DNA of 27,695 nt, taken from positions 128,001 to 155,695 of the IMG/VR virus record IMGVR_UViG_3300045988_163776, one strand, 5' to 3'. The notes beneath the pieces are model-generated. The model saw only the letters and a list, made by a program, of their open reading frames with translations, did not search any database and was not told the origin of the DNA. Position 1 is the stretch's first letter, and the number at the start of each line of letters is the position of its first letter. Positions 21,694 through 23,265 of the stretch are shown here, in pieces. The stretch comes from a virus. Made by a program: the position numbers and the translations under genes.

Positions 21694-22225
21694 ATGGCTA
21701 AAATAAAGAAAATAAAAGATAATAATGGCACTACTATTTACCCTCTTACCTCGGTTGATGTAGTCTTTGACAAAAATGGTAAGACTTTGACCGGGGGGGG
21801 TGCTAAGTTTTATAGCTGGTCCTGATGATGACTTAAAGAATAATCCAACTATTAATTCTATCATAGCTTAGAACCTCACTACTAGTCTCTCCCCAAGAGG
21901 AGGTAGAGATTATGTAAGTGTTTTGTGCTTAGATAATAAATATATTCGTACTTGGTCGTTTTATAAGAAATCAGCAGCCTCGCCTGCGGAAAAAGGAGAC
22001 AAATATAATGCAAGACTCTCTGGAAGTGGAATTCTTGTATTTTGCATGACGGAATAGTCACCAAATCATATTGATGACGCCTATTTTTATCCATTTGAAT
22101 TATTAGGTACTAATTAGTATTTTAAATAGATAAACGGAATATCTTTTGATACTGAGAGCATTAATGGATTTGTAGACCCAATGGGAGATTGGGATGCTTA
22201 TTGGGTATTATTCAAAAAAGTATAA
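21694..22225 (+). CDS. tail-fibre-like paralog A; frame interrupted at a G8 tract (21783-21790), full length only with G7 or a +1 shift
   Basis: N-terminus MAKIKKIKDNNGTTIYPLTSVDVVFDKNGKTLTGGG. The zero frame hits TGA 12 codons after the G8. The +1 frame continues about 140 codons (TAG as sense) to TAA 22223-22225. Confidence 0.4.
21783..21790 (+). repeat. G8 homopolymer inside paralog A
   Basis: ccgggggggg tgct. The only G runs of 7 or more that I noticed in this AT-rich window are this one and 22410-22417. Confidence 0.9.
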
Positions 22226-22307
22226 TTAAAGAGAATAAATTAATATAATATTTTATTCACTTAATTTATTCTCTTTAATATAAAAAAATAAAAGGAGAGA
22301 ATAAATT

Positions 22308-22752
22308 ATGGCACAAATTAAAAAATTAAAGCAAGGGGAGACAACGATTTTCCCAATGACAGATGCAAGTGCTGTACAATACGCAGGTAAAACTCTCTCG
22401 GATATGACCGGGGGGGGTCTATAGTACCCAACCCGTAAAAATTGGCACTTGGATTAATGGAAAGACAATATATAGAGAAATAAAAGAAATAGATTTTGCA
22501 TAGATAGATAAAACAGCGGACCATTTTTCATCAAATCTATCAGATTTTGGTATTTCTATAACAAAGACTGGAGGTTTACTTAATTTATATATTATAAGTT
22601 TTGCTTTTCCTTTAGATTCTGCAACTAATCAAGAAATTGGGTTTGTTTATACGCCAAATGAATTTTTAAAAGGTATAAAAGATGGGAATATAACAGAGTC
22701 ACTGTTTATTGAACCAATATATGCAATTATTACTTATGTTTCTTTAGACTAA
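22308..22752 (+). CDS. tail-fibre-like paralog B; frame interrupted at a G8 tract (22410-22417), full length only with G7 or a +1 shift
   Basis: aaaggagaga RBS. MAQIKKLKQGETTIFPMTDASAVQYAGKTLSDMTGGG. The zero frame stops at TAA 13 codons after the G8. The +1 frame continues about 110 codons to TAA 22750-22752. Confidence 0.4.
22410..22417 (+). repeat. G8 homopolymer inside paralog B
   Basis: atgaccg ggggggg tctatag. Same relative position and context (T-G-G-G) as in paralog A. Confidence 0.9.
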
Positions 22753-22782
22753 CTAAGAAGAATATTTTATTCTTCTTAGTAA
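22752..22782 (+). terminator. hairpin terminator-like element
   Basis: ctaagaagaata-tttta-ttcttcttag after paralog B. Confidence 0.5.
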
Positions 22783-22812
22783 TTTAATTTTTAATAAGGA
22801 GAATAAGATATT

Positions 22813-23265
22813 ATGGCACAAATTAAAAAATTAAAAGACAATAATAATAATACAATATATCCAATGACACAAGCATCAGCAGTTTTTCTTAATAATGGAG
22901 AACAGCTTAGTGATTATTATTTAATTAAAGATATGGTTGCGTCTAATAAAGGCGTATCTGATTTATTCAATAATAGGATATATTTTAATGATGTTGGATC
23001 TCCAATAAAAGATCCAACTTTATATTTAATAAAAATAAAAGTAAATGGTCAACAACAGCTTACTTATTATGAAAATCCATTGAATGGCTATATTGCTTCT
23101 GATTTTGATAGTGACACTGGATTTTCAACTTCGCCATTAATGGTTACTAGTTTTACAGATGGGAAAATATACAAAACAACCAAAGAGTTTTCTTTTATCT
23201 ATGATAAAAGTGATAATTCTGCTGATCTAGAAACTGGGCAAAATGATTTAATAAGTAGTTTATAG
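22813..23265 (+). CDS. tail-fibre-like paralog C (intact, 150 aa)
   Basis: aaggag RBS. MAQIKKLKDNNNNTIYPMTQASAV... shares its N-terminus with paralogs A and B. No G tract, no TAG. TAG stop at 23263-23265. Confidence 0.65.
   Translation: MAQIKKLKDNNNNTIYPMTQASAVFLNNGEQLSDYYLIKDMVASNKGVSDLFNNRIYFNDVGSPIKDPTLYLIKIKVNGQQQLTYYENPLNGYIASDFDSDTGFSTSPLMVTSFTDGKIYKTTKEFSFIYDKSDNSADLETGQNDLISSL

What the first reader, a model, noticed from the sequence alone, without database searches (positions are those of the whole stretch)
21694..23265. Cassette of three tandem paralogs sharing an N-terminal module with divergent C-termini (likely receptor-binding/fibre variants)
All three genes start MA(K/Q)IKK(I/L)K(D/Q)..(T/N)TI(Y/F)P(L/M)T.(A/V).(A/V)V under similar RBSs. 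They then diverge completely (C-termini about 140, about 110 and about 120 aa). This pattern is typical of a conserved virion-anchoring domain fused to swappable binding domains, a host-range diversification locus, and it lies directly downstream of the collagen-like fibre gene.
Basis: seen in the sequence. Interest (0 to 1): 0.5.

Follow-up and report, generated by a model that had tools for sequence, protein, structure and literature searches.

The report
Poly-G switches in phage fibre genes
Two of three neighbouring look-alike genes in an uncultured human-gut phage carry a run of 8 G's that knocks their variable half out of frame, and because related phages have anything from 5 to 12 G's there, the run most likely acts as a mutational on/off switch for probable tail-fibre tip proteins, a trick already known from Campylobacter phages.

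Summary
The three tandem paralogues are real. They share a 33-41 residue N-terminal module (51-62% identity, pairwise E 3e-6 to 8e-11) and have unrelated C-termini. Genes 1 and 2 are not continuous ORFs, even when TAG is read as Gln. Each has an ACC-G8-T tract at the boundary between module and C-terminal domain (21793-21800 and 22410-22417), and that domain lies in the +1 frame. These are the only G/C runs longer than 5 in the window.

In 14 related cassette loci from other gut metagenomes, the tracts are 7-12 G (gene 1) and 8-10 G (gene 2). Cluster members extend this to 5-12 and 6-11. In-frame alleles (7 or 10 G) and out-of-frame alleles both occur. Alleles with 650/650 identical flanking bases differ as G8 vs G10. 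The out-of-frame domains stay open and show dN/dS of about 0.4.

The best explanation is a pair of hypermutable poly-G contingency loci that switch two putative fibre-tip or receptor-binding proteins on and off, while gene 3 has no tract. C-terminal cassettes are also swapped just after the tract, and gene 2 is gained or lost. The mechanism has a precedent in Campylobacter phages, so this is a new member of a known kind. The receptor-binding role is inferred, not shown.

The parts
20938..21540 (+). Collagen-like fibre gene (200 aa, 3 in-frame TAG), directly upstream. It gives the structural context and is a possible docking partner.
   Evidence: PF01391 Collagen E 5e-10 and many tail-fibre PHROGs. 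Present upstream of the cassette in every related locus that extends that far upstream.
21694..21792 (+). Gene 1 N-terminal module (MAKIKKIKDNNGTTIYPLTSVDVVFDKNGKTLT), behind RBS GAAGG at 21679-21683.
   Evidence: Its DNA is almost invariant across six aligned loci.
21793..21800 (+). Gene 1 poly-G tract, 8 G here, which is the out-of-frame (OFF) state. The N-terminal frame stops at TGA 21823-21825 and gives a 43-aa product.
   Evidence: The same site has 7, 8, 9, 10, 11 or 12 G in related loci. Cluster members imply 5-12 G.
21800..22225 (+). Gene 1 C-terminal domain ORF (141 codons, type A cassette, 4 in-frame TAG), in the +1 frame relative to the N-module.
   Evidence: It is fused in frame to the N-module in P0156 (177 aa, 95% identity, G10). 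dN/dS is 0.40 against L003 at dS 0.75.
22225..22279 (+). AT-rich hairpin after gene 1 (19-bp stem in the predicted fold, about -18 kcal/mol). It is the conserved 3' arm of the gene 1 cassette.
   Evidence: (I1).
22308..22409 (+). Gene 2 N-terminal module (MAQIKKLKQGETTIFPMTDASAVQYAGKTLSDMT), behind an AAGGAGAG RBS.
22410..22417 (+). Gene 2 poly-G tract, 8 G here (OFF). The N-terminal frame stops at TAA 22455-22457 and gives 49 aa when TAG is read as Gln.
   Evidence: The site has 8, 9 or 10 G in related loci. Cluster members imply 6-11 G. An IMG/VR contig terminates inside this tract.
22417..22752 (+). Gene 2 C-terminal domain ORF (111 codons, 1 in-frame TAG), in the +1 frame. It belongs to the 'YS..IGTWI.GK.IYR' domain family.
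   Evidence: It is in frame with the N-module in P0001 and P0002 (148 aa, G10). The family has 145 representative hits. Partner domains are tail-fibre or collar modules and CBMs.
22752..22780 (+). Terminator-like hairpin after gene 2 (13 pairs).
22813..23280 (+). Gene 3 (155 aa). It has the same N-module and no G tract, so it is always in frame. The TAG at 23263-23265 is read through to TGA 23278-23280.
   Evidence: No tract in any of the 17 cassette loci.
16887..16974 (+). tRNA with anticodon CTA (amber suppressor). It supports TAG being read as sense in these late genes.
   Evidence: TAG alternates with CAA/CAG (Gln) at the same codon in relatives.

Best explanation
Genes 1 and 2 each contain a hypermutable poly-G tract. 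It sits exactly where the conserved 33-34 residue N-terminal module meets the variable C-terminal domain.

Proposed mechanism:
- Slipped-strand mispairing during phage DNA replication adds or removes G's (inferred mechanism).
- The full-length protein is made only when the run has 7, 10 or 13 G.
- Any other length gives a 37-50 residue peptide that consists of the N-module alone.
- In this window both tracts have 8 G, so both genes are OFF. Only gene 3, which has no tract, encodes a full-length protein.
- A phage population therefore carries a mixture of genotypes that display different combinations of the C-terminal domains.

From gene position and domain associations, these are most likely distal tail-fibre or receptor-binding domains mounted through the shared N-module (inferred). 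On a longer timescale the same architecture allows cassette exchange and gain or loss of gene 2. The conserved arms for exchange are the N-module with its tract on the 5' side and a hairpin on the 3' side.
For: Shown directly:
1. The two G8 runs are the only G/C runs longer than 5 in 27.7 kb. About 0.03 runs of 8 or more G are expected by chance. GGG makes up 9% of Gly codons, and 0 of 20 other Gly-Gly pairs are encoded as GGGGGG.
2. In both genes the C-terminal ORF is in the +1 frame.
3. In related loci from other human-gut samples the gene 1 tract is 7, 8, 9, 10, 11 or 12 G and the gene 2 tract is 8, 9 or 10 G. These are again the only G/C runs of 6 or more in each locus.
4. In-frame alleles exist: P0001 and P0002 for gene 2, and P0156-P0160 for gene 1.
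5. The tract changes far faster than its surroundings. L003 vs L017 have 650/650 identical flanking bases but G8 vs G10. L014 vs L018 have 648/650 identical but G12 vs G7.
6. The out-of-frame C-terminal ORFs stay open for 105-141 codons in all loci. dN/dS is 0.40-0.42 at dS about 0.75 for gene 1 and 0.22-0.49 for gene 2.
7. A census of cluster members gives gene 1 ON in 25 of 82 contig occurrences, with the three frames near-uniform (25:28:29). Gene 2 is ON in 5 of 41.
8. Independent assemblies of one sample agree: L007 and L008 are both G8/G8.
9. A 125 kb IMG/VR contig ends inside the gene 2 tract.

Supporting the fibre role: the locus lies between a collagen-like fibre gene and the lysin. 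The gene 2 domain family co-occurs with tail-collar or tail-fibre domains, F5/8-type-C and CBM5/12.

Precedent: Sorensen et al. 2021, Cell Rep 35:109214, cited.
Against: - No reads were available, so heterogeneity within one sample and reversibility are not shown. Only differences between samples are shown.
- The contig counts in the census are not independent samples. Tract lengths there are inferred from Gly counts.
- The virion location and receptor-binding function are inferred only. Genes 1-3 have no Pfam, PHROG, PDB or GenBank-phage match. The AlphaFold models are poor and fold searches were empty.
- RNA polymerase or ribosome slippage on G8-G12 could make the OFF states leaky. This was not tested.
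Confidence: 0.75

Rival explanations
1. Programmed expression by ribosomal frameshifting or transcriptional slippage. On this view the genome is meant to be out of frame, and a fixed fraction of ribosomes or RNA polymerases slips on the G run to make both a short and a long product.
For: Long G runs are slippery for both machines (established knowledge). Out-of-frame alleles are the majority: 57 of 82 contig occurrences for gene 1 and 36 of 41 for gene 2.
Against: - Out-of-frame alleles fall into both wrong frames. Tracts of 8 or 11 G need +1, and tracts of 9 or 12 G need -1. No single programmed shift fits both.
- In-frame genomic alleles with 7 and 10 G are common.
- There is no conserved or stable structure downstream of the tract. 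The sequences after it are unrelated in gene 1 type A, gene 1 type B and gene 2, and fold to only -9.1 and -6.3 kcal/mol over 80 nt in this window.
- Slippage may still add leakiness on top of the DNA-level switch.
Confidence: 0.1
2. Sequencing or assembly artefact: homopolymer length is miscalled and the real genes are all in frame.
For: Homopolymers are error-prone, and one contig breaks at the tract.
Against: - Lengths range over 7-12 G in the DNA of assembled contigs, beyond typical one-base errors.
- Two assemblies of the window's sequence, an ENA scaffold and an ERR636392 k127 assembly, give the same G8/G8. L018 and L019 both give G7, and L010 and L011 both give G9.
- Contigs come from several assemblers, judging by record names (k117, k127, k141, NODE_, Logan).
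- A/T runs of 7-8 in the same window do not disrupt ORFs.
Confidence: 0.03
3. Genes 1 and 2 are decaying pseudogenes, frameshifted relics of duplicated fibre genes.
For: Both are out of frame in this window. Gene 2 is absent from many relatives. Some close pairs show dN/dS above 1, based on very few substitutions.
Against: - The C-terminal ORFs remain stop-free for 105-141 codons in an AT-rich genome in every locus.
- dN/dS is about 0.4 at dS 0.75.
- The only lesion is ever the tract length.
- In-frame alleles are frequent.
- The G run itself is conserved against codon bias.
Confidence: 0.04
4. The switch is real, but the proteins are not receptor-binding proteins. They could be fibre assembly or decoration factors, or non-virion late proteins acting on the host surface.
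For: There is no direct evidence of virion location or binding. Genes 1 and 3 have no homologues of known function. The products are small (148-177 aa).
Against: - The genes sit between a collagen-like fibre gene and the lysin, and carry in-frame TAG codons like the other late genes.
- The gene 2 domain sits at the distal end of, or is repeated in, proteins with tail-collar or tail-fibre and carbohydrate-binding domains.
- Cassette-type mosaicism is typical of host-recognition genes.
Confidence: 0.2

Closest known systems
Poly-G phase-variable receptor-binding proteins of Campylobacter Fletchervirus phages (Sorensen et al. 2021, Cell Rep 35:109214). Its content is recalled from memory. The title and citation were seen, but the paper itself is not held.
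   Same: - Homopolymeric G tracts of about 7-12 lie inside phage structural or host-recognition ORFs.
- Tract length varies and switches the reading frame.
- Only a subset of the phage's several RBP-type genes is switchable. There it is two of four as I recall, and here two of three. The result is a phenotypically mixed phage population.
   Different: - The proteins are unrelated: tblastn of genes 1-3 against 50,697 GenBank phage records found nothing.
- The phage lineage is different: an uncultured human-gut phage of at least 155 kb that reads TAG as Gln.
- The host is probably Bacillota, judging from the lysin's SLH domain, not Campylobacter.
- Here the tract is duplicated at the same module boundary in tandem paralogues, so the OFF product is the intact shared N-module.
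- There is no experimental evidence here.
Phage contingency loci in T2/T4 and other phages (Gomez, Barrick & Waters 2025, bioRxiv 10.1101/2025.10.21.683753)
   Same: Simple-sequence repeats in phage ORFs give reversible frameshifts by polymerase slippage, which the authors interpret as bet-hedging.
   Different: That study counts repeats of 6 bases or more across all gene classes, and demonstrates the effect in the T2 agt and T4 rIIA genes (section headings). [quoted passage not shown] Here the tracts are long G runs in a 31% GC genome, confined to two fibre-module genes, and conserved against codon bias.
Bacterial contingency loci (poly-G/C phase variation in Campylobacter, Neisseria and Haemophilus surface genes; established knowledge, summarised)
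   Same: An intragenic homopolymer, three-frame ON/OFF logic, and a tract that evolves much faster than its flanks.
   Different: This one is encoded by a virus, and it switches a putative adsorption protein rather than a receptor.
Cassette-type host-range switches: the Mu G segment and P1 C segment inversions, and diversity-generating retroelements
   Same: One conserved N-terminal fibre part is combined with alternative C-terminal receptor-binding parts, and the phage population is mixed.
   Different: There is no invertase or reverse transcriptase, no flanking inverted repeats, and no template/variable repeat pair. All genes lie on one strand. The alternatives are separate genes switched by frameshift, not by DNA rearrangement.

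Membership tests
Homopolymeric-tract contingency locus (phase variation by slipped-strand mispairing) | Uninterrupted mononucleotide run of about 7 or more inside the ORF, in excess of chance and codon bias | tested here: met
   G8 at 21793-21800 and 22410-22417. The next-longest G/C run is 5. The expected number of G runs of 8 or more is 0.03. GGG is 9% of Gly codons and 0 of 20 other Gly-Gly pairs are GGGGGG.
Homopolymeric-tract contingency locus (phase variation by slipped-strand mispairing) | Tract length is polymorphic among very close relatives while the flanks are conserved | tested here: met
   7-12 G (gene 1) and 8-10 G (gene 2) in assembled loci. G8 vs G10 with 650/650 identical flanks, and G12 vs G7 with 648/650. 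5-12 G and 6-11 G are inferred from cluster members.
Homopolymeric-tract contingency locus (phase variation by slipped-strand mispairing) | Length changes toggle between an intact ORF and a truncated product, and both states occur naturally | tested here: met
   ON alleles P0001, P0002 and P0156-P0160. OFF peptides of 37-50 aa, P0184-P0210.
Homopolymeric-tract contingency locus (phase variation by slipped-strand mispairing) | The switched coding region is maintained by selection and is not a pseudogene | tested here: met
   ORFs are open in all loci. dN/dS is about 0.4 at dS 0.75 for gene 1 and 0.22-0.49 for gene 2.
Homopolymeric-tract contingency locus (phase variation by slipped-strand mispairing) | High-frequency, reversible switching within a clonal population | not testable with these tools
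   This needs raw reads or culture. The only hint is a contig that breaks inside the tract.
Fletchervirus-type poly-G phase-variable RBPs | Sequence homology to the Campylobacter phage RBPs | tested here: not met
   tblastn of P0001, P0004 and P0156 against all GenBank phage records gave no match. The mechanism is analogous but the proteins are not homologous.
Programmed ribosomal frameshift site | A fixed out-of-frame arrangement with one shift direction, conserved among relatives, usually with a downstream stimulatory structure | tested here: not met
   Relatives occupy all three frames. There is no conserved or stable downstream structure.
Phage tail fibre / receptor-binding protein | Encoded in the tail/fibre module of the late region | tested here: met
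   The genes lie between the collagen-like fibre gene and the lysin, and in-frame TAG codons are concentrated in genes from 15039 onward.
Phage tail fibre / receptor-binding protein | Homology or fold similarity to a characterised fibre or receptor-binding domain | tested here: inconclusive
Phage tail fibre / receptor-binding protein | Present in the virion and needed for adsorption | not testable with these tools
   The phage is uncultured and no proteomic data were available.
Invertible-segment, shufflon or DGR fibre diversification | Inverted repeats with a recombinase, or a template/variable repeat pair with a reverse transcriptase | tested here: not met
   The only repeats are the RBS/N-module, the collagen triplets and the local hairpins. 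No such enzyme was identified among the window's ORFs that were scanned, though upstream ORFs before 17304 were not scanned.

The most novel reading that the evidence does not exclude
The switch may be more than ON/OFF. The tract sits exactly after the shared N-module, so every OFF allele still makes a free 37-50 residue N-module peptide. If that module is the docking element, OFF peptides and the three full-length paralogues would compete for the same sites on the fibre. Tract states would then set the stoichiometry of tips on each virion, which could explain why none of the six loci carrying both genes has both ON. In addition, the conserved module-plus-G-run may act as the 5' homology arm, or as a break-prone hotspot, that drives exchange of C-terminal cassettes. 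That would couple fast reversible switching with slower domain shuffling at a single site.
Probability: 0.15. Interest if true: 0.7.

Novelty: new member of a known kind. Interest (0 to 1): 0.5.

Why it matters
Poly-G phase variation of phage receptor-binding proteins has been demonstrated experimentally in Campylobacter phages. For gut phages it is mentioned only as a possibility.

This locus is a clean natural example from an uncultured, TAG-recoded human-gut phage of at least 155 kb. Public metagenomes alone already show 5-12 G alleles, with ON and OFF states of two paralogous genes.

If the proteins are adhesins, three things follow:
- Host range and adsorption in this lineage are heterogeneous within populations.
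- Host-prediction and gene-calling pipelines will routinely mis-annotate these genes as fragments.
- The locus is a ready target for read-level tests of phage bet-hedging in the gut.

It also runs against the trend reported for coliphages, where simple repeats are depleted from tail-fibre genes.

Tried and rejected
- **Exact-pattern scans for the tract flanks.** IMG/VR gave no hits. JGI metagenomes gave only three unrelated 66% GC chance hits, L004-L006.
- **Protein-anchored scans.** IMG/VR gave only one related contig. GTDB genomes gave none, so there is no host from that route.
- **GenBank phages.** The DNA search hit only collagen-repeat noise. tblastn with genes 1-3 and a typical family member found nothing.
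- **Pfam and PHROGs.** No family for genes 1-3, except a marginal hit to phrog_6907 of unknown function at E 0.07. The 810-aa upstream protein also has no PHROG match.
- **phAss-1 group.** I considered whether this phage belongs to that TAG-recoded group (PMC10607447). Its described tail genes differ and there is no DNA similarity, so I did not pursue it.
- **Invertible segment or DGR.** Rejected.
- **My own ON rule.** My first rule (tract length = 1 mod 3) mis-scored L020. There a synonymous ACC>ACG change lengthens the run to 11 G without shifting the frame.
- **First dN/dS and identity script.** It timed out and was rerun with a faster aligner.
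Full report
**What is at the coordinates**

The window is 31% GC. Its late genes contain many in-frame TAG codons. The window also encodes a tRNA with anticodon CTA at 16887-16974. In relatives, TAG alternates with Gln codons at the same positions, for example 'MTqASAV' vs 'MTQASAV' and 'AVqYAG' vs 'AVQYAG'. Reading TAG as Gln is therefore justified.

Three genes on the + strand start at 21694, 22308 and 22813. Each follows a GGAG-type ribosome-binding site. A collagen-repeat fibre gene lies directly upstream at 20938-21540 (PF01391 and tail-fibre PHROGs). 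A Peptidase_C1 + SLH protein, a probable lysin, lies directly downstream at 23312-24241.

**Checking the observation**

The shared N-terminal module is real and extends well past ten residues.

| Pair | Identity | Length | E-value |
|---|---|---|---|
| g1-g3 | 58% | 33 aa | 8e-11 |
| g1-g2 | 51% | 41 aa | 3e-6 |
| g2-g3 | 62% | 34 aa | 6e-7 |

Local-alignment z-scores against shuffles are 7.5-13. The C-terminal parts score at chance, apart from one weak g2/g3 local match.

Genes 1 and 2 are not continuous ORFs, even under code 15. The gene 1 N-terminal frame ends at TGA 21823-21825 after 43 codons. The gene 2 frame ends at TAA 22455-22457 after 49 codons. In both genes the long C-terminal ORF (141 and 111 codons) is in the +1 frame.

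The frame change happens at an identical ACC-GGGGGGGG-T motif, at 21793-21800 and 22410-22417. This is precisely where the similarity between the paralogues ends. Gene 3 has no such run. It most likely ends at TGA 23280 rather than TAG 23265, because homologues have E or K at the TAG position and continue for a few more residues.

**Is the G run more than chance?**

- The two runs are the only G/C runs longer than 5 in the window. About 0.03 runs of 8 or more G are expected.
- GGG is the rarest Gly codon, at 9%.
- None of 20 other Gly-Gly dipeptides in the window's ORFs is encoded as GGGGGG.

**Relatives**

The window corresponds to a 155.7 kb human-gut scaffold (ENA ERZ28573263). An independent assembly of run ERR636392 gives the same G8/G8. 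Homologues of gene 2, gene 3 and gene 1 led to further loci from other gut metagenomes, all with the same gene order.

Tract lengths read from the assembled DNA:

| Locus | Gene 1 tract | Gene 2 tract |
|---|---|---|
| window / L007 / L008 | 8 | 8 |
| L002 | 9 | 10 |
| L003 | 8 | 10 |
| L009 | 11 | 8 |
| L010 / L011 | 9 | gene absent |
| L013 | 8 | gene absent |
| L014 | 12 | 10 |
| L016 | 10 | gene absent |
| L017 | 10 | gene absent |
| L018 / L019 | 7 | gene absent |
| L020 | 11 (10 plus a synonymous ACC>ACG; in frame) | 9 |
| L021 | 10 | gene absent |

- These are again the only G/C runs of 6 or more in every locus.
- Tracts of 7 or 10 G give continuous 140-177 aa proteins (P0001, P0002, P0156-P0160).
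- A 125 kb IMG/VR contig terminates inside the gene 2 tract.

**Hypermutability**

- L003 and L017 are identical at 650 of 650 flanking bases but have G8 vs G10.
- L014 and L018/L019 are identical at 648 of 650 but have G12 vs G7.

The run therefore changes much faster than point substitutions accumulate.

**Not pseudogenes**

The out-of-frame C-terminal ORFs are open for 105-141 codons in all loci. dN/dS is 0.40-0.42 at dS about 0.75 for gene 1 type A. It is 0.22-0.49 for gene 2. A few very close pairs exceed 1, but these rest on 1-2 synonymous changes.

**Census**

The 90%-identity protein clusters contain both the full-length proteins and the truncated peptides.

| Gene | ON | n = 0 mod 3 | n = 2 mod 3 | Total | Inferred tract range |
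|---|---|---|---|---|---|
| Gene 1 | 25 | 28 | 29 | 82 | 5-12 G |
| Gene 2 | 5 | 15 | 21 | 41 | 6-11 G |

These are contig occurrences. They are not independent samples, and lengths are inferred from Gly counts, so the proportions are indicative only. For gene 1 the three frames are essentially uniform. One allele, P0167, has an interrupted tract (TEGGV).

**Rivals**

- *A single programmed ribosomal frameshift* does not fit. OFF alleles occupy both wrong frames. In-frame genotypes are common. The sequence downstream of the tract is unrelated in gene 1 type A, gene 1 type B and gene 2, and has no stable structure. RNA-level or ribosomal slippage may still make OFF states leaky. This was not tested.
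- *Assembly artefact* is unlikely. The length range is wide, assemblies of the same sample agree, and several assemblers were involved.
- *Invertible-segment or DGR mechanisms* are excluded by the repeat analysis and by gene orientation.

**Modularity**

An alignment of six loci shows three zones:
- The RBS, N-module and tract are almost invariant.
- The two gene 1 cassette types (A: 'VLSFIAGPDDD...'; B: 'VLTYISTSIPTD...') diverge within about 6-12 nt after the tract.
- A conserved hairpin and intergenic arm (22225-22279, about -18 kcal/mol) follows.

Gene 2 is present in six of the sampled cassette types and absent in seven. Gene 3 also has alternative middle segments.

**What the proteins are**

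Genes 1-3 have no Pfam, PHROG, PDB or GenBank-phage match.

A profile of the gene 2 family found 145 representatives that carry a domain with the signature 'YS..E..IGTWIDGKPIYRK...EYTKTTD'. The domain occurs singly, in 2-5 tandem copies, or at the C-terminus of long proteins. Where those proteins have annotated partner domains, they are tail-collar or tail-fibre modules, phage fibre repeats, Gp10_C, collagen, F5/8-type-C and CBM5/12.

More distant relatives with the same N-module (P0003, P0013, P0016) have ordinary linkers in place of the G run. The tract is therefore a lineage-specific acquisition.

The AlphaFold2 models were too weak to use, and fold searches gave nothing. A fibre-tip or receptor-binding role is thus an inference from position, domain associations and mosaicism.

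**Host**

The lysin's SLH domain, and its only cultured-phage relatives (Thermoanaerobacterium and Parageobacillus phages), point to a Bacillota host. No genome or MAG match was found.

**Comparison with what is known**

- The mechanism matches poly-G phase variation of receptor-binding proteins in Campylobacter Fletchervirus phages (Sorensen et al. 2021; citation seen, content recalled from memory).
- It also matches the broader 'phage contingency loci' concept (Gomez et al. 2025).
- The proteins are unrelated to any deposited phage protein, and the phage lineage is different.
- The tract position is notable: the same module boundary in tandem paralogues, which leaves an intact N-module peptide in the OFF state.
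- In coliphages, simple repeats are reported to be depleted from tail-fibre genes, so this lineage runs against that trend.

**Verdict**

The paralogy is real, but the ORF structure was misread.
The modular, variable fibre locus holds up, but anchoring and binding are unproven and the main mechanism was missed.
- The best explanation is a pair of poly-G contingency loci that switch two of three paralogous putative fibre-tip proteins. Both are OFF in this window.
- It is a new member of a known kind, of moderate interest, and directly testable with public reads.

Noticed in passing
window 7380-16974: An array of 16 tRNA genes. It includes an amber-suppressor tRNA (anticodon CTA, 16887-16974, which ARAGORN labels 'Pyl') and two calls with odd anticodon loops (11037-11109 and 13082-13156).
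   Followed up: partly
window 20882-20920 and 24304-24342: A repeated AT-rich motif (TTTG.(N).TTTTTTGATAT[AG]ATAAA) lies upstream of the collagen-like gene and upstream of the radical-SAM gene. It may be a late promoter (families D2/D4).
   Followed up: no
window 7111, 7260, 9046, 27652: The motif AAAAAAAATAT(T/A)ATAT, preceded by GAAAA(A/T)TT in the first three copies (...TTTTTTT before the fourth), recurs four times around the tRNA region and at the window's end. It may be an early or middle promoter or another regulatory repeat.
   Followed up: no
window 17304-17678 and 17694-18389: Two adjacent upstream ORFs end with the same motif...EDFINSLFS* and ...EEYINSLFTASSN*. This suggests a shared C-terminal interaction or assembly tag in the fibre module.
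   Followed up: no
window 23312-24241: The putative lysin is a papain-family Peptidase_C1 fused to an SLH domain, with 5 in-frame TAG codons. This is an uncommon lysin architecture. Its only cultured-phage relatives infect Thermoanaerobacterium and Parageobacillus.
   Followed up: partly
window 24509-25759: A radical-SAM protein (PF04055 / Fer4_12; phrog_1802) lies immediately after the lysin and is conserved in all relatives that extend that far. Its role in a late or lysis region is unexplained.
   Followed up: no
L002, L003, L009, L014, L020 and window (loci with both genes): In none of the six loci that carry both genes 1 and 2 are both tracts ON. The states are OFF/OFF in two, OFF/ON in three and ON/OFF in one. 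This is not significant at this sample size, but it would fit competition for one docking site.
   Followed up: partly
protein P0167 (cluster of P0156): A gene 1 allele reads TLTEGGV instead of TLTGGGV. The G run is interrupted by a G>A change, giving a shortened tract that is in frame and probably more stable.
   Followed up: no
L001 position 1 (IMGVR_UViG_3300045988_155865, 124,943 bp): This IMG/VR contig ends exactly inside the gene 2 poly-G tract, with 7 G visible. The upstream flank is not at its other end.
   Followed up: yes
window 22421-22522 (gene 2 residues 38-71) vs 23122-23226 (gene 3 residues 104-138): There is a weak local similarity between the start of the gene 2 domain (VYSTQPVKIGTWINGKTIYREIKEIDF) and a C-terminal segment of gene 3 (FSTSPLMVTSFTDGKIYKTTKEFSF). 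It is 36% identical over 36 aa with E 5e-4. It could be a shared beta-hairpin motif or a remote relationship.
   Followed up: no
L003 vs L017: These two contigs are 100% identical over 650 nt around the gene 1 tract. They differ in tract length (8 vs 10 G), in the presence of gene 2 and in the gene 3 subtype. That indicates very recent recombination within the cassette.
   Followed up: partly
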